64,000 bases of DNA from an uncultured Acidobacteriota bacterium (lineage in GTDB: Bacteria; Acidobacteriota; Thermoanaerobaculia; Multivoradales; JAHEKO01), in NCBI GenBank assembly GCA_963713825.1, contig CAVQNG010000025.1, positions 640,001-704,000 of the forward strand, written 5' to 3'. The translations under genes were made by a program, and so were the position numbers. The notes under the pieces are model-generated. The model was not told the origin of the DNA, ran no database searches, and saw nothing but the letters and a program-made list of their open reading frames with translations. Below, in pieces: positions 27,075-33,212 of the stretch (positions are counted from its first letter, which is position 1; each line of letters begins with the position of its first letter).

Positions 27075-28463
27075 ATGGCGACAGAAGTCATCATGCCCGA
27101 GATGGGCGAATCCATCGCCGAGGGCACCATCACGAAATGGCTGGTCCAGGTCGGAGAGCGAGTGGAGAGAGACCAGCCTTTGTTCGAGGTTTCGACCGAC
27201 AAGGTCGATGCCGAGATTCCCAGTCCGGCCTCCGGAACCCTCCTGGTGGTGCACCACGGGGAAGGTGCAACCGTTCAGGTCAATGAGCTGGTCGCCATCG
27301 TCGGGGAGCCTGGTGAGCAACCGGAGGCCCAACCGGTGGCGGCGCCGGCTGGAGTCGAGGCCCCGGTTGTCGAGGCCTCGGAGCCCATTGAGGCCGCGGT
27401 CGAACAACCTGCTCCCGTTGCGGAGCCCGCTCCGACGCAGCAGGTAGTGGTCGGCGAAGATAGTCAGCTTGTCGACAGAATTCGTCGGTTCTCGAGTCCA
27501 CTGGTCCGCAAGATGGCGGCTGCAGAGGGGGTCGATCTCTCGCAGATCCAGGGTACGGGAATCCAGGGACGGGTGACCAAGCAGGACATGCAGGAGTACT
27601 TGGAGCGCCGATCGGCGGCACCGCCTTCGACGGCAGCCCCACCTCCCGCTGCTCCGGCTTCGCCGATGCGCACGGCAGAAGTCGTCACAGCGGCTCGACG
27701 TGCGCCAGTCGGTGACTTTCAGGTCGCTGCCTACCACGAGGGGGACAACGTCGAGATCGAGCCGATGTCCAATATCCGTCGCCTGACGGCGTCTCATATG
27801 GTCTATTCCAAGGCCACTTCGGCGCACGTCAGCACGGTCTTCCACGTCGACCTGTCCAGAGTGGCCAAGGTGAGGGCCCGCGCCAAGCGAGGCTTCGCGC
27901 AGACCCACGGTACGAAGCTCACCTTCATGCCGTTCATCTTCAAGGCGGTGGCCAACGCGCTCACCGCCTTTCCAAATCTGAATTCGTCCATCGACGGCAC
28001 CAACATCGTGCACAAGAAGGACATCAACCTGGGTATGGCTGTCGCTCTCGATTGGGGCCTTCTGGTACCCGTCATCCGACACGCCGATCGGCTCAACCTC
28101 GTTGGCCTCGCGAAGACAGCCAACGATCTGGCCGAGCGCGCCCGAAGCAAGCGTCTGAGTCCGGAGGAAGTTCAGGGCGGCACTTTTACGGTGACAAACC
28201 CAGGAGTCTTCGGCTCGCTGTTCGGTACTCCCATCATCAATCAGCCCCAGGTGGCGATCCTGGGCATCGGGGCCATCGAGAAGCGTCCGGTGGTGGTGAA
28301 CGACGACGATGGTAACGACACCATCGCGATCAAGACCATGTGTTATTTCGCTCTGACCTTCGATCATCGCCTGGTCGACGGCGCCGAGGCCGACAGCTTC
28401 ATGAATCACCTCCGGCGAACCCTGCTGGAGGAGACCTGGTCGGAGCTCGATTCGTTTCAGTAG
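27075..28463 (+). CDS. Dihydrolipoamide acyltransferase E2 (SucB/DlaT-like, one lipoyl domain)
   Basis: EVSTDKVDAE lipoyl site, SPLVRK E3-binding domain, TFDHRLVDG catalytic motif. Confidence 0.92.
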   Translation: MATEVIMPEMGESIAEGTITKWLVQVGERVERDQPLFEVSTDKVDAEIPSPASGTLLVVHHGEGATVQVNELVAIVGEPGEQPEAQPVAAPAGVEAPVVEASEPIEAAVEQPAPVAEPAPTQQVVVGEDSQLVDRIRRFSSPLVRKMAAAEGVDLSQIQGTGIQGRVTKQDMQEYLERRSAAPPSTAAPPPAAPASPMRTAEVVTAARRAPVGDFQVAAYHEGDNVEIEPMSNIRRLTASHMVYSKATSAHVSTVFHVDLSRVAKVRARAKRGFAQTHGTKLTFMPFIFKAVANALTAFPNLNSSIDGTNIVHKKDINLGMAVALDWGLLVPVIRHADRLNLVGLAKTANDLAERARSKRLSPEEVQGGTFTVTNPGVFGSLFGTPIINQPQVAILGIGAIEKRPVVVNDDDGNDTIAIKTMCYFALTFDHRLVDGAEADSFMNHLRRTLLEETWSELDSFQ

Positions 28464-28525
28464 CCGCGCCCTGGTCGAGCCCGTCGCGAGAGCACTCACG
28501 GAGCGCTCGAGACAACGGTCCACAG

Positions 28526-29218
28526 GTGAGAGGAATTACCCTGCGAGCTTTGGATTGGAGCTACCTCGGCACGCTGGACTACCGGCGATCGCTGGCGCTA
28601 CAGGAGTTACGCCGAGAGAAGCTTCGTGCCGGTCAGGCGAATGAAGCGTTGCTCCTACTCGAGCACCCTCACACCTACACGCTGGGCCGCAACGCCGATC
28701 GCGCCGACATCCTGGCCGGTTCGGATTGGTTGCAGTCCAGGGGAGTGAAAGTCGAGGAGTGTGACCGCGGCGGTCAGGTCACCTACCATGGTCCCGGCCA
28801 GCTCGTCGGCTATCCGATCCTCGACCTGAATCCAGATCGACGCGACCTGAGACGCTACGTGCGTGACTTGCAGGAAGTCCTGGTCCGTGTGTTGGCCGAG
28901 GTCGGCCTGGCCGCCGAGCCTCGTTCGAAGAGTCCTGAGATCGGCGTCTGGGTGGAGGGGAAGAAGATCGCCTCTCTCGGTGTTCATGTCAGTCGGTGGA
29001 TCACGACCCACGGATTCGCTCTCAACGTGAACACCGATCTGAGCTACTTTGCCGCCATTGTGCCGTGCGGCATCCAGGGAGTGGAGATGACGTCGGTCGC
29101 TGAGCTCACAGGAAGGAATCTGCCGCTGAAAGACCTGGCGGCCTTGTGTGTCCACCACACGGCCGAGGTCTTTCAACGTCGCCCGCTCGCCATGACTTCC
29201 GAAGAGTTGATGGGCTGA
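28526..29218 (+). CDS. lipB: Lipoyl(octanoyl) transferase
   Basis: LLEHPHTYTLGR, DRGGQVTYHGPGQLVGYP, KIASLG, IVPCG; start approximate. Confidence 0.92.
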   Translation: MRGITLRALDWSYLGTLDYRRSLALQELRREKLRAGQANEALLLLEHPHTYTLGRNADRADILAGSDWLQSRGVKVEECDRGGQVTYHGPGQLVGYPILDLNPDRRDLRRYVRDLQEVLVRVLAEVGLAAEPRSKSPEIGVWVEGKKIASLGVHVSRWITTHGFALNVNTDLSYFAAIVPCGIQGVEMTSVAELTGRNLPLKDLAALCVHHTAEVFQRRPLAMTSEELMG

Positions 29219-29640
29219 TGACCTACCGGTTCGTCGAACATACGGCCGACGTCGGTGTCGAGCTCGAGGCGAGCAGCTACGAGGGATTGCTGTCCGAGGG
29301 TCTTTTGGCGCTCACTGACACTCTGACCGAGGTCGAGCGGGTGAGCCTGGAGATCGAGCTGTCCGTCGATCTCCGTGCGCCGAGTCGTGAGGATCTTTTG
29401 GTCGGTTGGCTCAACGAGCTGGTCTACCTCTTTGATTCGAAATCGGTGCTGCTGCGCCAATCGGACATCGGAGTCGGGAAAGAAGGCGGCGAGTGGCGTC
29501 TACGGGCAACGGTAGGCGGTGAGCGCTACGATCCTGAACGGCACCGTATCAAAACGCTGATCAAGGCGGTCACCTACCACCAACTGGCGGTGAGATCATC
29601 GACGTCTGGATGGCAGGCCCGAGTCGTCTTTGACATCTGA
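29218..29640 (+). CDS. Archease (RtcB activator)
   Basis: YRFVEHTADVG N-terminal motif, WLNELVY, IKAVTYH, terminal VFDI; TGATG overlap with lipB. Confidence 0.93.
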   Translation: MTYRFVEHTADVGVELEASSYEGLLSEGLLALTDTLTEVERVSLEIELSVDLRAPSREDLLVGWLNELVYLFDSKSVLLRQSDIGVGKEGGEWRLRATVGGERYDPERHRIKTLIKAVTYHQLAVRSSTSGWQARVVFDI

Positions 29641-29732: not shown

Positions 29733-31169
29733 ATGAGAATCGAACAGGTCGATGAGTTCCGCTGGAGGATTCCCAAGCAGGGAAAGATGCAAGTCGATGG
29801 CCTGATCTTCGCGAGTGCAGCGATGATGAGCGACATCCGCCACGACCCATGCCTTCAACAAGTCGTCAACGTAGCTCATCTACCGGGGATTGTCGGGGCT
29901 TCCATGGCCATGCCCGATATCCACTGGGGCTATGGTTTTCCCATCGGTGGCGTCGCCGCAATGGACGGCAAGAAGGGTGTCGTCTCGCCGGGCGGTGTCG
30001 GCTACGACATCAACTGAGGCGTTCGCCTCTTGCGCTCAGGTCTGAGTCGCTCCGAAATCCAGCCCAAACTGAGGCACCTCGTGACCCGCCTCTATCAGAA
30101 CATCCCAACCGGCATCGGCAAGGGCCGTGGCGATCTGCGGTTGAATCGACAGGAGCTGACAGGGGTCATGACTCGAGGGGCGGCGTGGTGCGTCGACCGG
30201 GGGATGGGCTACGAAGAGGACTTGGAGTTCCTCGAGGAGAAAGGCTGTATCGAGGGAGCGCGGCCCGATCTGGTGACGGACAAGGCCTATCAACGAGGGC
30301 GAAGTCAGCTTGGATCGTTGGGCTCGGGGAATCACTTCGCGGAAATCCAGTATGTGGCTGAAATCTACGACGAAGTTGCAGCTACCGCTTTGGGCCTCTT
30401 CGAGGACCAGGTGACTCTGACGATTCACAGTGGATCGAGAGGCCTCGGTCACCAGGTCTGCACGGACCACCTCCGGGTGATGGTGGAAGCGGCGGCTCGG
30501 TACGGCATCGAGCTACCCGATCGTCAGCTCTGTTGCGCTCCCATTCAATCCGCGGAAGGACGCCATTACCTTGGTGCCATGTCGGCGGCCGCCAACTTCG
30601 CCTTCGCCAATCGGCAGGTCATGACGCACTGGGCTCGCGAGAGTTTCATGCAGACCCTGGGCCTGGGACCCGGCCGGGCTGGGCTCGACGTGGTTTACGA
30701 TGTCTGTCACAACATCGCGAAGTTCGAGACGTTCGAGCTCGACGGTAGGAGTCGACGCCTCTGCGTTCACCGCAAAGGAGCCACCCGGGCTTATCCACCC
30801 GGTCACCCGCAGACACCCGAGGCCTACAGGGAAGTCGGGCAGCCTGTATTGATTCCCGGGGATATGGGACGCTACTCCTATGTGCTCGTGGGAACCGAGA
30901 AAGCCTACCGTGAGACCTATGGCTCCACTTGTCATGGGGCGGGCAGAAGGCTCAGCCGCAAGCAGGCCAAGAAGCAGGCGAGAGGGAGAAGACTCTTGGA
31001 GGAGCTCGAAAATGAGGGTGTTGTGGTGATGGCCGCCGGAATGGGCACGGTAGCCGAGGAGATGCCCGAGGCATACAAAGACGTCTCGGTTGTGGTCGAC
31101 GTGGTTCAAGGCGCCGGGATCAGCCGCAAAGTCGCCCAACTGAAACCGATGGGAGTGATCAAGGGATGA
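29733..31169 (+). CDS. rtcB: RtcB RNA 3'-phosphate/5'-OH ligase (archease-dependent type), 478 aa, in-frame UGA at codon 95 predicted as selenocysteine
   Basis: ORFs 29709-30017 and 30030-31169 are in the same frame, joined by AAC-TGA-GGC-GTT-CGC, giving [10 protein letters not shown][U]GVRLL. Other motifs are intact: [49 protein letters not shown], terminal KG. Confidence 0.9.
30032..30050 (+). promoter_or_regulatory. Candidate bacterial SECIS element
   Basis: GCG-CTCA-[GGTC]-TGAG-T-CGC hairpin. The apical loop starts with G, with 21 nt between the UGA and the loop. The CAGGTCTG core is identical to the apical part of the E. coli fdhF SECIS (TGCAGGTCTGCA). Confidence 0.75.
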
Positions 31170-32212
31170 GTGCCGAGAAACAGAGCGCCAGGTTCACTTC
31201 AGAGTCTATGGATGCGGCGGAGGCGACCGCTCCATCTTCTTCGGATCAACGAGCCGACGCGATTCTCGATCGCTGGCGGAGCGTGATTCCCGAGATCGAG
31301 TGGGCCGTGCAGGCGTCACTTATCGAACGGATCCGACGCCTCAAGAAGCAGCGAAAAGCCGTCATTCTGGCCCACAACTACCAGACGCCCGAGATCTTCT
31401 TTGGTGTCGCCGATTTCACCGGGGATTCGCTGGGTCTGGCGCGGCAGGGGTCCGAAACCGAGGCGGAGGTCATCGTCCTCTGTGGAGTCCACTTCATGGC
31501 GGAGACGGCGAAGATCTTGAGCCCAGAGAAGACGGTGCTCCTTCCCGACCAGGAGGCGGGTTGCTCCTTGGCCAGCTCATTAGCGGCCGGTGATGTGCGG
31601 CAGCTCCGCGAGCGCTATCCAGGAGTTCCCGTGGTGAGCTATGTGAATACTTCCGCGGCCGTCAAAGCGGAGTCCGATATCTGCTGTACCTCGGCGAACG
31701 CCGTGGAAGTGGTGCAGTCGCTCGATAGCGATCGGGTGATTCTTCTTCCGGACGAATACCTCGGCGACTACGTGGCGCGACACTCGGACGTGGAGATCAT
31801 TCGGTGGGAGGGCCGTTGCGAGGTCCATGAGCGCTTCTCTGCCGAGGAGGTGCGCGGCTATCGGCAGCAGCATCCTGGAATCCAGGTTCTGGCACACCCC
31901 GAATGTCCGAGCGACGTGCTGACGGAGGCGGATTTCGTCGGCTCGACCAGCGGCATGATTCGTCATCTCGAGAGCAGCCGGCCCGAGCGGGTCGTGCTGA
32001 TGACGGAATGCTCCATGAGTGACAATCTGGCGCTGGAGTTGCCCGCAATCGAGTTTGTTCGTCCCCGCAGTCTCTGTCCTCACATGAAGCTGATCACCCT
32101 ACCCAAGATCGCCCAGGCACTGCAGGCCCTCGAGCCGAGAGTCGAGGTGCCAGCAGCGATCGCTGCTGGCGCCAGACAGGCCCTTCAGGCGATGCTCGGT
32201 GTGAGCCGGTAG
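31166..32212 (+). CDS. nadA: Quinolinate synthase A
   Basis: ILAHNYQ, CGVHFMAE, AGCSLA, YVNTSA, CEVH, AHPEC, CPHMK; ATGA overlap with the rtcB stop. Confidence 0.93.
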   Translation: MSAEKQSARFTSESMDAAEATAPSSSDQRADAILDRWRSVIPEIEWAVQASLIERIRRLKKQRKAVILAHNYQTPEIFFGVADFTGDSLGLARQGSETEAEVIVLCGVHFMAETAKILSPEKTVLLPDQEAGCSLASSLAAGDVRQLRERYPGVPVVSYVNTSAAVKAESDICCTSANAVEVVQSLDSDRVILLPDEYLGDYVARHSDVEIIRWEGRCEVHERFSAEEVRGYRQQHPGIQVLAHPECPSDVLTEADFVGSTSGMIRHLESSRPERVVLMTECSMSDNLALELPAIEFVRPRSLCPHMKLITLPKIAQALQALEPRVEVPAAIAAGARQALQAMLGVSR

Positions 32213-32288
32213 CATATTTCTCGTGCCGTGGCGCCGCCGTGTCGAGAGTGTTCGTACCCCCGGGGCGATCGTATAAACTCGGGCTCCC

Positions 32289-33212
32289 GTGTCCGACTCT
32301 CTGGTGCAATTAGGCAAGAGCTCTACTGGCGGATCTCGAAGACAACCCCGCCCAGAGTGGCTGCGCATCCGGCTCTCGACGCCGCAGCGCTATCACGAGG
32401 TCAATGGTCTCGTCGAAGGCTTGAGCCTGAACACGGTCTGTCAGGAGGCTCGATGTCCCAACATCTACGAGTGTTGGGGCGAGCACGGTACGGCCACGTT
32501 CATGATCCTCGGCGATATCTGCACACGCCGCTGCGGCTTCTGTGCCGTGACATCGGGAAGACCCCGACCCGGGGTTGAGGCGGCCGAGCCGGAGAACGTG
32601 GCGCAGGCCGTCGCAGCGATGGAGTTGAGGCACGCGGTCATTACCTCCGTCGATCGGGACGACCTGGACGATGGCGGAGCGACTCACTTCGCCGATGTTA
32701 TCGAGGCCATCCATCACCGAACTCCTCAAACAGCCGTTGAGGTCCTGACACCCGATTTTCGGGGCGTCCCGGGGGCGTTGGACATCGTTTTGGCTGCGGC
32801 TCCGGAGGTCTTCTCCCACAACATGGAAACGGTCCCTCGGCTCTACCGAACAGCGAGACCTGGTAGCCGCTATGAGCGTTCTCTCGGATTGCTCGAGTCG
32901 GCGGCTGAGCGCCAGAACCGGGGAGAGTTCTCAGGGCGCCTGAAGACAGGGATCATGGTTGGGCTCGGTGAGAGTCCGAATGAGGTTCGGGAGACTCTTC
33001 GGGAGATCCGACAGACCGGTGTCGAGATCTTGACCATTGGCCAGTATCTGCAGCCGACTTCAGCCCATCTGCCGGTGGAGCGATGGGTCCACCCCGACGA
33101 GTTCGCGAGCTACCGTGACTTCGCCCTGTCTCTCGGGTTCGATCACTGCGAATCCGGGCCTCTCGTGAGAAGCAGCTATCACGCCCACGAGCACGTGGCC
33201 GCCTCTGGTTGA
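32289..33212 (+). CDS. lipA: Lipoyl synthase
   Basis: CQEARCPNIYEC, CTRRCGFC radical SAM motif, RSSY. Confidence 0.95.
   Translation: MSDSLVQLGKSSTGGSRRQPRPEWLRIRLSTPQRYHEVNGLVEGLSLNTVCQEARCPNIYECWGEHGTATFMILGDICTRRCGFCAVTSGRPRPGVEAAEPENVAQAVAAMELRHAVITSVDRDDLDDGGATHFADVIEAIHHRTPQTAVEVLTPDFRGVPGALDIVLAAAPEVFSHNMETVPRLYRTARPGSRYERSLGLLESAAERQNRGEFSGRLKTGIMVGLGESPNEVRETLREIRQTGVEILTIGQYLQPTSAHLPVERWVHPDEFASYRDFALSLGFDHCESGPLVRSSYHAHEHVAASG

What the first reader, a model, noticed from the sequence alone, without database searches (positions are those of the whole stretch)
29733..31169. Candidate selenocysteine RtcB RNA ligase: UGA at the catalytic metal-bridging Cys
Seen: the only interruption in an otherwise complete 478-codon rtcB is TGA at 30015-30017, in [18 protein letters not shown]. 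All other catalytic motifs are intact (PD-H, GSGNH, HSGSRG, HN, HRKG, HGAGR guanylylated His, terminal KG). Established: this position is the invariant Cys of RtcB (C98 in Pyrococcus horikoshii) that bridges the two active-site Mn ions. Inference: UGA encodes Sec, giving an RNA-repair ligase with a selenolate metal ligand. Most known selenoproteins are redox enzymes, so this would be unusual, and pipelines would mis-annotate it as two fragments or a pseudogene. I cannot check here whether Sec-RtcB is already catalogued.
Basis: partly seen in the sequence, partly recalled or inferred. Interest (0 to 1): 0.93.

Follow-up and report, generated by a model that had tools for sequence, protein, structure and literature searches.

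The report
Selenocysteine form of RtcB RNA ligase
This bacterium, like many sediment and anaerobic bacteria, appears to build its RtcB RNA-repair ligase with selenocysteine in place of the supposedly invariant metal-binding cysteine, a form that gene callers cut into fragments and that we did not find described.

Summary
An otherwise intact 478-codon rtcB (29733-31169, +) has one in-frame TGA at 30015-30017, aligned with Cys98 of the P. horikoshii enzyme, the residue that ligates both active-site Mn ions.

The selenocysteine reading is strongly supported:
- The genome has tRNA-Sec(UCA), its only UCA-anticodon tRNA, plus SelA, SelB and a TGA-containing SelD. TGA is also its commonest ordinary stop.
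- 12 of 30 fetched orthologs from relatives carry TGA at this column; the other 18 have TGC/TGT.
- A pattern scan of species-representative genomes gave 92 more TGA-type RtcB genes among 119 hits, in Thermodesulfobacteriota, Nitrospirota, Acidobacteriota, Binatota and others.
- dN/dS is about 0.15 upstream and 0.11 downstream of the TGA.
- A hairpin with a GGUC loop (30032-50) is the most synonymously frozen part of the gene in TGA forms only, and resembles the fdhA SECIS of this genome.
- Archease lies directly upstream.

Caveats: there is no protein-level evidence, and the window's hairpin is not unusually stable thermodynamically.

In the top 120 hits of one protein-collection search, TGA-type relatives appear only as 379-aa fragments. 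Four literature searches and four selenoproteome papers gave no natural Sec-RtcB; supplements were closed. Verdict: real, probably an uncatalogued selenoprotein family.

The parts
29146..29640 (+). Archease gene (activator of RtcB guanylylation), 92 nt upstream of rtcB
   Evidence: Pfam PF01951 Archease, E = 8e-40, residues 27-164. An archease homolog lies on the same strand beside rtcB in 52 of 56 Sec-type loci with at least 600 nt of upstream sequence, and in 14 of 18 Cys-type loci.
29733..31169 (+). rtcB coding sequence read through the internal TGA: 478 residues with Sec at position 95, ending at the true stop
   Evidence: PF01139, E = 3.1e-175. About 60% identity over the full length to solved RtcB structures. 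It is the only RtcB copy found in the genome with this query.
30015..30017 (+). In-frame TGA, proposed Sec codon (U95), at the position of the Mn-bridging catalytic Cys (P. horikoshii C98)
   Evidence: The same column is TGA in 12 and TGC/TGT in 18 of 30 ortholog loci. No variant was seen in laid contigs.
30032..30050 (+). Proposed SECIS hairpin inside the coding sequence. Stem: 30032-30038 pairs with 30043-30046 and 30048-30050, with a bulged U at 30047. Apical loop: GGUC at 30039-30042, starting 21 nt after the UGA.
   Evidence: Fold. The sequence GCGCTCAGGTCTGAGYCGC is invariant in all 12 TGA-type orthologs of the order. Codons 101-107 are the lowest of 476 synonymous-difference windows in TGA forms (0.10 against 0.47 gene-wide), while in Cys forms the hairpin window aa 100-106 is unremarkable (rank index 201 of 476). 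The fdhA-type selenoprotein gene of this genome has a GGUCU loop 18 nt after its UGA, and selD has a GGG loop 17 nt after its UGA.
31167..31169 (+). True stop codon of rtcB (also TGA), overlapping the ATG of the next gene (nadA, 31166-32212)
   Evidence: PF02445 NadA, E = 4.8e-115.

Best explanation
The TGA at 30015-30017 is a selenocysteine codon. Shown or strongly supported: the gene is intact, conserved and under purifying selection on both sides of the TGA, and the genome has a complete bacterial Sec system. Inferred: the ribosome reaches UGA95, and SelB carrying Sec-tRNA(Sec) is recruited by the in-frame hairpin 30032-30050 (GGUC loop 21 nt downstream). This gives a full-length 478-residue RtcB. 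The enzyme would be a GTP- and Mn-dependent 3'-phosphate/5'-OH RNA ligase, activated by the archease encoded just upstream. In it a selenolate replaces the thiolate that ligates both active-site Mn ions. The histidine that is guanylylated (H401) and the other metal ligands (D92, H201, H232, H326) are unchanged. Why selenium is used is inference only. This cysteine is the oxidation-sensitive weak point of RtcB, so a selenolate may resist irreversible over-oxidation or bind and tune the metal pair better. It also makes synthesis of the ligase depend on selenium supply. Sec and Cys forms have interconverted many times. Two same-genus relatives with TGT still keep the hairpin, which suggests recent Sec-to-Cys reversion.
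For: Sec machinery in the genome:
- tRNA-Sec scores 69.2 bits against a cut-off of 47, and ARAGORN calls it SeC(tca).
- SelA 354.7 bits, SelB 320.3 bits, SelD 339.5 bits with its own in-frame TGA.
- Of 49 tRNAs, the only UCA anticodon is tRNA-Sec and tRNA-Trp is CCA. TGA ends 690 of 1,290 open frames of at least 500 codons, so there is no reassignment.

Recurrence:
- 12 of 30 ortholog loci from relatives have TGA at the Cys column and 18 have TGC/TGT. A 13th genome (G026) shows '1 TGA'.
- 92 of 119 pattern-scan loci are RtcB with TGA at that column. Of these, 67 have a complete downstream part, 22 are cut by a locus or contig end, and 3 are damaged.
- SelA was found in 5 of 5 such genomes tested from other lineages.

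Selection: NG86 dN/dS over 55 Sec-Sec pairs has median 0.152 for aa 1-94 and 0.110 for aa 96-478, at dS of about 1-2.5.

RNA element:
- The synonymous freeze sits exactly over the hairpin, and only in TGA forms.
- Nitrospirota-type genes have a different, longer hairpin at the same place: 12 pairs, 4 with compensatory changes.
- Against synonymous resampling, TGA forms have mean z = -1.02 (18 of 70 at or below 5%), and Cys forms +0.07 (1 of 18).
- The loop motif and spacing resemble the fdhA and selD SECIS of the same genome.

Function:
- Archease is adjacent.
- U95 aligns with PhoRtcB C98, which ligates both Mn ions. Cys-to-Ala mutants are ligase-dead (PMC10630183, passages).
- The Cys is described as invariant and oxidation-sensitive (PMC12263435, abstract and passages).
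Against: - No protein-level evidence. RNA evidence is only short contigs about 98% alike from one metatranscriptome library, which may contain DNA.
- The window's own hairpin is not thermodynamically exceptional: z = -0.21 against dinucleotide shuffles of 70 nt and z = +0.84 against synonymous resamples.
- Raw MFE does not separate Sec from Cys forms (Mann-Whitney p = 0.65).
- RNAalifold found no consensus structure for the 57 short-hairpin sequences, whose stems lie in different registers.
- No Rfam family matched.
- Within the window's order nearly all genomes use Sec (SelA in 59 of 61), so co-occurrence does not discriminate there.
- TGA forms outside the window's order were collected by a pattern that contains the TGA, so no Cys comparators from those phyla were sampled.
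- An engineered Sec98 P. horikoshii RtcB underwent spontaneous peptide-bond cleavage (PMC4150793, passages), so Sec at this site is not automatically benign.
- 3 of the 92 loci carry frameshifts or premature ends (L103, L138, L141).
Confidence: 0.88

Rival explanations
1. SelB-independent readthrough: the UGA is decoded at low level by a near-cognate tRNA (Trp, Cys or Arg), perhaps helped by the downstream hairpin. The protein would then carry an ordinary residue at position 95.
For: UGA is the leakiest stop codon (general knowledge, recalled). No protein data exist here. The hairpin's stability is unremarkable in the window.
Against: Only Cys or Sec can plausibly serve as the bridging ligand, and Cys-to-Ala is ligase-dead (PMC10630183). 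TGA alternates only with TGC/TGT at this column. The hairpin has the loop motif and spacing of the genome's own fdhA SECIS. All genomes tested that carry the TGA form and are reasonably complete also have SelA: 12 of 13 in the order, the exception being G005 at 70% completeness, and 5 of 5 elsewhere.
Confidence: 0.05
2. Split enzyme: translation stops at UGA95 and restarts downstream, giving a 94-residue and a roughly 379-residue polypeptide that assemble.
For: Gene callers predict a 379-aa ORF from TTG at 30030. TGA-GG creates an SD-like GAGG 10 nt upstream of that TTG.
Against: The first possible restart codon ranges from codon +2 to beyond +49, and 5 of 69 TGA-type genes have none within 49 codons. 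Such a split would delete the essential bridging ligand. It does not explain why the break is always exactly the Cys codon, nor why the hairpin is frozen only in TGA forms.
Confidence: 0.03
3. Pseudogene or sequencing/assembly error: the TGA is a recent nonsense mutation or a miscalled TGC/TGT.
For: A single in-frame stop is the commonest signature of a pseudogene. 3 of the 92 related TGA loci do carry extra damage.
Against: The TGA is present in contigs of independent runs, including a strain with 15 other differences. The same codon occurs in about a hundred genomes of several phyla. dN/dS downstream is 0.11 at saturating dS. No other stop or frameshift is present. No second RtcB copy was found in the genome.
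Confidence: 0.02
4. Genome-wide reassignment of UGA (for example to Trp or Gly, as in NCBI tables 4 or 25).
For: None beyond the in-frame TGA itself.
Against: rtcB itself ends in TGA. TGA ends 690 of 1,290 long open frames. tRNA-Trp has anticodon CCA, and the only UCA anticodon is tRNA-Sec.
Confidence: 0.01

Closest known systems
Canonical Cys-type RtcB with archease (P. horikoshii PH1602, T. thermophilus TTHA1785, human RTCB)
   Same: Full-length homology: phmmer E = 5.7e-185 to 2epg and 1.7e-175 to 1uc2. Same metal ligands and guanylylated His by alignment. Archease gene adjacent.
   Different: The Mn-bridging Cys, called invariant in PMC12263435, is encoded by UGA, and a SECIS-like hairpin is embedded in codons 100-106.
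Selenoproteins in which Sec ligates a catalytic metal: formate dehydrogenase (Mo/W) and [NiFeSe] hydrogenase (recalled from general knowledge)
   Same: Sec replaces a Cys that is a direct metal ligand. Sec/Cys pairs exist among orthologs. The genome's own fdhA-type gene has ..CAATUHAP.. with a similar GGUCU-loop SECIS.
   Different: Those are redox enzymes with soft or redox-active metals. RtcB is a nucleotidyl-transfer RNA ligase with a di-Mn(II) centre and no net redox chemistry.
Engineered P. horikoshii RtcB U98, made with a UAG/EF-Tu system (PMC4150793)
   Same: Sec placed at exactly this residue.
   Different: It is artificial, SECIS-free and made in E. coli. The product cleaved a nearby peptide bond spontaneously (passages read). 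The paper does not mention natural Sec forms in the passages shown.
Intein-containing RtcB (NCBIfam NF038162)
   Same: The C-extein part aligns from residue 94, so the intein inserts at this same Cys. Two such long forms were seen in the phylum sample (G070 and G160, open frames of about 1,070 aa).
   Different: The window's gene has no intein: 726 bits against a cut-off of 1,150, in two stretches only.

Membership tests
RtcB RNA ligase (Pfam PF01139) | Full-length match to the family profile above the curated cut-off | tested here: met
   583.9 bits against a cut-off of 27, profile positions 1-426 of 426.
RtcB RNA ligase (Pfam PF01139) | Metal ligands Asp95, Cys98, His203, His234, His329 and the guanylylated His404 (P. 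horikoshii numbering; roles from PMC10630183; His404 as the guanylylation site is recalled) | tested here: met
   D92, H201, H232, H326 and H401 align. The position of Cys98 is the TGA codon, so this feature is met only if it is read as Sec, a chemical analogue of Cys.
RtcB RNA ligase (Pfam PF01139) | Partner archease | tested here: met
   PF01951, E = 8e-40, directly upstream. The pairing is conserved in 52 of 56 Sec-type loci with room to judge.
RtcB RNA ligase (Pfam PF01139) | GTP/Mn-dependent 3'-P/5'-OH ligation activity | not testable with these tools
   Needs an enzyme assay.
Bacterial selenoprotein gene | In-frame UGA aligned with Cys in homologs, with conserved flanks on both sides | tested here: met
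   12 TGA against 18 TGC/TGT among 30 orthologs, with identical flanks [13 protein letters not shown]. dN/dS is 0.15 and 0.11 on the two sides.
Bacterial selenoprotein gene | SECIS stem-loop shortly downstream of the UGA, with a G-containing apical loop roughly 16-37 nt away (criteria recalled from the bSECIS model) | tested here: inconclusive
   Geometry is met: GGUC loop 21 nt after the UGA. Conservation is met: synonymous freeze ranked first of 476 windows in TGA forms only, covariation in the Nitrospirota type, and similarity to the fdhA and selD SECIS of this genome. Thermodynamic tests on the window's hairpin are not significant. No alifold consensus for the mixed set.
Bacterial selenoprotein gene | Genome encodes tRNA-Sec, SelA, SelB and SelD | tested here: met
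Bacterial selenoprotein gene | Selenium actually incorporated at the UGA | not testable with these tools
   Needs 75Se labelling or mass spectrometry.
Intein-containing RtcB (NF038162) | Intein inserted before the catalytic Cys; score above 1,150 bits | tested here: not met
   726.1 bits. Only extein parts match, and the protein is 478 aa.

The most novel reading that the evidence does not exclude
Sec-RtcB is a widespread, so far uncatalogued selenoprotein family and the first selenoenzyme of RNA repair or ligation. In it a selenolate bridges the catalytic di-Mn centre. It was selected because it protects the enzyme's known weak point, the oxidation-prone metal-binding Cys, against irreversible inactivation. 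That would be the bacterial counterpart of the protection PYROXD1 gives metazoan RTCB.
Probability: 0.3. Interest if true: 0.85.

Novelty: new variant of a known kind. Interest (0 to 1): 0.78.

Why it matters
- RtcB reviews and structural papers treat the active-site cysteine as invariant and as the enzyme's oxidation-sensitive weak point (PMC12263435, PMC10630183). Natural Sec forms would show that it is not invariant. They would also give a natural experiment on what selenium does as a ligand of a di-Mn nucleotidyl-transfer centre.
- Most catalogued prokaryotic selenoproteins are thought to act in redox reactions (abstract of PMC9312934, seen in the listing). An RNA ligase widens the functional range of selenium.
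- There is a practical annotation problem. These genes are stored as 379-aa fragments, so RNA-repair capacity is under-called in Acidobacteriota, Nitrospirota and Thermodesulfobacteriota genomes, and selenoproteome censuses miss a family.
- The repeated Sec/Cys switching, at least 11 changes on a 97-row tree, makes this a good system for asking when selenium pays.

Tried and rejected
- Raw hairpin MFE, Sec against Cys orthologs: no difference (means -13.0 and -13.3 kcal/mol, p = 0.65). I rejected it as a test because the Cys comparators are GC-rich and fold anyway.
- RNAalifold on all 57 short-hairpin sequences: no consensus structure, because the stems are in two registers. I did not split the set by register, to avoid defining groups by the feature being counted. 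I used the synonymous-site scan instead.
- Rfam scan of 29900-30200 at E up to 10: no match. This is uninformative.
- Co-occurrence of TGA-RtcB with Sec machinery within the order: uninformative, because SelA is found in 59 of 61 genomes and tRNA-Sec scores above cut-off in 57 of 61.
- RNA-level expression: only short contigs from one metatranscriptome run, and DNA carry-over is possible. I make no claim of expression and name no habitat.
- Englert et al. 2012 (PMC3458315) is not held. I took the metal-ligand statement from the review PMC10630183 instead.
- Not run: structure prediction, complex prediction and the ESM Atlas. About 60% identity to solved RtcB structures made them unnecessary.
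- Supplementary tables of selenoproteome papers (for example BSepDB Table S2) could list RtcB. They were closed, so 'uncatalogued' is provisional.
- Correction: my notebook entry after said 13 of 30. The correct reading is 12 TGA and 18 Cys of 30 loci. The 13th TGA genome (G026) appears only in the table.
- G006 is flagged as unpublished. Its locus L043 (Cys type, TGT) is one of the 18 Cys comparators, and it counts in the tallies. No conclusion depends on it alone, and I did not recompute without it.
Full report
OBSERVATION

The window holds an rtcB gene at 29733-31169 (+). Its only interruption is TGA at 30015-30017, in [18 protein letters not shown]. Read through, it gives 478 residues and ends at another TGA (31167-31169). 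Pfam RtcB matches residues 43-478 at E = 3.1e-175.

Against solved structures the protein aligns over its full length with T. thermophilus TTHA1785 and P. horikoshii RtcB. Residue 95 falls on P. horikoshii Cys98. D92, H201, H232, H326 and H401 fall on D95, H203, H234, H329 and H404 (positions counted from the printed alignment).

The review PMC10630183 (passages read) states that one Mn is held by Cys98, His234 and His329 and the other by Asp95, Cys98 and His203. It also states that alanine substitution of the equivalent Cys in three species gives ligase-dead enzyme, and that this Cys is found oxidised in aerobically purified protein.

IS THE TGA REAL?

Laid contigs of four runs show no other letter at 30015-30017. 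Record 4 of X1 and record 14 of X2 bridge the codon. Record 14 spans the whole gene and differs at 15 other places, so it comes from a different strain. One of these runs may be the window's source sample.

Recurrence is more telling. Among 61 related genomes, 30 full orthologs were fetched. Of these, 12 have TGA at exactly this column and 18 have TGC or TGT. One further genome (G026) shows '1 TGA' in the table but was not fetched.

IS UGA AN ORDINARY STOP IN THIS GENOME, AND CAN IT MAKE SEC?

The genome is 5.42 Mb in 38 contigs and 96% complete.
- It has a tRNA-Sec at 69.2 bits (cut-off 47) that ARAGORN also calls SeC(tca).
- It has SelA (354.7 bits), SelB (320.3 bits) and SelD (339.5 bits, itself with one in-frame TGA).
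- Of 49 tRNAs, the only UCA anticodon is tRNA-Sec, and tRNA-Trp is CCA.
- TGA ends 690 of 1,290 open frames of at least 500 codons.

So UGA is a normal stop that can be recoded locally. It is not a reassigned codon. No second RtcB copy was found with this query.

IS THE GENE ALIVE?

Across 55 pairs of TGA-type orthologs, NG86 dN/dS has a median of 0.152 for residues 1-94 and 0.110 for residues 96-478, at dS of roughly 1-2.5. The part after the TGA is therefore translated and constrained.

An archease gene (PF01951, E = 8e-40) sits 92 nt upstream on the same strand. An archease homolog lies beside rtcB in 52 of 56 TGA-type loci with enough upstream sequence to judge, and in 14 of 18 Cys-type loci.

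THE RECODING SIGNAL

Seventeen nucleotides after the TGA a hairpin begins (30032-30050). It has a seven-pair stem with one bulged U and a GGUC loop starting 21 nt after the UGA.

Its thermodynamic stability is not remarkable: z = -0.21 against dinucleotide shuffles and z = +0.84 against synonymous-codon resamples of the same peptide. Raw MFE does not separate TGA forms from Cys forms (p = 0.65).

The persuasive evidence is evolutionary.
- The 19-nt sequence is invariant, apart from the bulge (Y), in all 12 TGA-type orthologs of the order, although those proteins are only 72-89% identical.
- In a scan of synonymous codon differences along the gene, codons 101-107 are the lowest of 476 seven-codon windows in the 11 full-length TGA forms (0.10 against 0.47 gene-wide). 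In the 18 Cys forms the hairpin window (aa 100-106) has rank index 201 of 476 (0.43 against 0.43 gene-wide).
- Over the wider set, TGA forms have mean z = -1.02 against synonymous resamples (18 of 70 at or below 5%), and Cys forms +0.07 (1 of 18).
- Nitrospirota-type genes carry a different, longer hairpin at the same place. RNAalifold predicts 12 pairs, 4 with compensatory double changes.
- The mixed set of 57 short hairpins gave no alifold consensus because the stems sit in two registers.

As internal positive controls, the genome's fdhA-type gene (..CAATUHAP..) has a 7-bp stem with a GGUCU loop starting 18 nt after its UGA. Its selD has an 8-bp stem with a GGG loop starting 17 nt after its UGA. 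The RtcB element has the same core (GGUC-U-G) and a similar spacing.

HOW WIDESPREAD?

- 92 of the 119 are RtcB genes with the TGA in frame at the catalytic column, and 27 are chance matches (59 of the 80 listed; 33 of the other 39).
- Of the 92, 67 have a complete downstream part of 378-383 residues ending at a stop, 22 are cut by the end of the locus or contig, and 3 are damaged: L103 has two compensating frameshifts, and L138 and L141 end early.
- By the phylum of the record titles they are Thermodesulfobacteriota 25, Nitrospirota 22, Acidobacteriota 18, Myxococcota 7, Binatota 2, one each of Eiseniibacteriota, Gemmatimonadota and Pseudomonadota, and 15 unplaced, mostly 'delta proteobacterium'.
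- At least two duplicate genomes are already in the relatives set. L126 lies in G009. L061 has the same 54-mer as L027.
- SelA was found in 5 of 5 such genomes tested.

In an even sample of the window's phylum, 72 of 151 genomes have an ortholog at E up to 1e-100, and 4 of the 72 show one TGA. The Sec form is thus a minority overall and is concentrated in the window's order. The closest named relatives are labelled Acidobacteriota or Vicinamibacterales.

SEC/CYS DYNAMICS

On a FastTree tree of 97 proteins (49 Sec, 48 Cys) the label needs at least 11 changes, 7 of them forced by well-supported branches. The shuffled mean is 32.6.

Two limits apply. Rows from outside the window's order were collected through the TGA pattern and are all Sec by construction. 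The root is unknown, so gains and losses cannot be told apart.

Two same-genus genomes with TGT (L024, L025) still carry the hairpin almost unchanged. I read this as recent Sec-to-Cys reversion (inference).

RIVALS

- A pseudogene or sequencing error is excluded by the recurrence, the selection and the laid contigs.
- Genome-wide reassignment is excluded.
- A split enzyme with a restart is unlikely. The first possible restart codon lies anywhere from codon +2 to beyond +49 and is missing in 5 of 69 genes. The split would remove the essential bridging ligand.
- SelB-independent readthrough cannot be excluded without protein data. It does not explain the exclusive TGA/TGY alternation or the fdhA-like hairpin.

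WHAT IS KNOWN?

- A search for 'RtcB' plus 'selenocysteine' gave 11 papers, none reporting a natural Sec-RtcB (listing). 'selenoprotein' + 'RNA ligase' + 'RtcB' gave 3. 'selenoprotein' + 'splicing ligase', matched anywhere in a word, gave 9. None was relevant except PMC4150793.
- PMC4150793 describes an engineered P. horikoshii U98 protein that cleaved a nearby peptide bond (passages).
- The May 2026 review of the prokaryotic selenoproteome (PMC13188914) tabulates more than 110 families in its text. It has no occurrence of RtcB, PF01139, ligase or splicing (find mode).
- The deep-Sep paper, the BSepDB paper and the 'Eight unexpected selenoprotein families' preprint have no 'ligase'. 'splicing' was searched in the first two and 'RtcB' in the preprint, also with no occurrence.
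- Supplementary tables were closed, so a listing there cannot be excluded.
- NCBIfam offers only ordinary and intein-type RtcB models for this protein.
- In the protein collection, 97 of the 120 best hits are full-length with Cys, 22 are 379-aa fragments starting at L/M-RSGLSR, one lacks the motif as searched, and none carries U.

MECHANISM AND MEANING

Shown: an intact, selected, archease-linked rtcB with UGA at the bridging-ligand codon, in a Sec-competent genome, with a conserved downstream hairpin.

Inferred: SelB-mediated Sec insertion gives a selenolate-bridged di-Mn RNA ligase.

Speculative: the benefit is resistance of the oxidation-prone ligand to irreversible inactivation, or tuning of metal binding. 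The vulnerability is documented for Cys-RtcB (PMC12263435, PMC10630183). The advantage of Sec is recalled general selenium chemistry and was not tested here.

VERDICT

I rate confidence in genuine Sec coding at 0.88. On novelty, it is a new variant of a known kind: a Sec form of a well-known enzyme, and probably an uncatalogued selenoprotein family.

I set interest at 0.78. The finding is surprising to RtcB specialists, who call this residue invariant, and useful to selenium biologists, because the metal ligand is not a redox centre. Against that, new Sec/Cys families are found fairly regularly, and no protein evidence exists yet.

Noticed in passing
G000:C25:839157-840080 (-), locus L018: The genome's selD is itself a selenoprotein gene (..CATTGG-U-AAKVGPG..). 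It has an 8-bp hairpin with a GGG loop starting 17 nt after the UGA.
   Followed up: partly
G000:C1 near 367915-368082 (-), locus L170: An fdhA-type molybdopterin oxidoreductase has an in-frame TGA (..HQCAATUHAPTV..). Its SECIS has a GGUCU loop starting 18 nt after the UGA. Gene callers would truncate it (open frame 362 aa).
   Followed up: partly
window 27075-29218 and 31166-33212: rtcB and archease are embedded among lipoate and NAD cofactor genes: E2 acyltransferase (27075-28463), LipB/LplA-type ligase (28340-29218), NadA (31166-32212, its start overlapping the rtcB stop) and lipoyl synthase (32289-33212). No functional link is evident.
   Followed up: no
G070:C7:28221-29378 and G160:C376:2-862; NCBIfam NF038162: Some genomes of the same phylum carry intein-containing RtcB (open frames of about 1,070 aa). 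The intein is inserted at the very Cys that is Sec here, so the same residue serves as splice junction, metal ligand and Sec site in different lineages.
   Followed up: no
L103 (Gemmatimonadales record), L138, L141: Three TGA-type rtcB genes are damaged. L103 has two compensating frameshifts over about 40 codons. L138 and L141 end early. These may be assembly indels or real decay.
   Followed up: partly
L024 (G002) and L025 (G001), same genus as the window: These Cys-type (TGT) orthologs keep the SECIS-like hairpin almost unchanged. They look like recent Sec-to-Cys conversions with a relic RNA element.
   Followed up: partly
G006 and G046: Two relatives each show two separate strong tRNA-Sec matches (80.2 and 68.0 bits in G006; 74.0 and 63.1 bits in G046). 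G006 also has two SelA matches. This may be a duplicated Sec system. G006 is flagged as unpublished.
   Followed up: no
L126 record title against G009: A record titled 'uncultured Polyangiaceae bacterium' is the same genome as G009, which the genome tool places in the window's own family. The closest other relatives are labelled Acidobacteriota, so the submitter's taxon label looks wrong.
   Followed up: no
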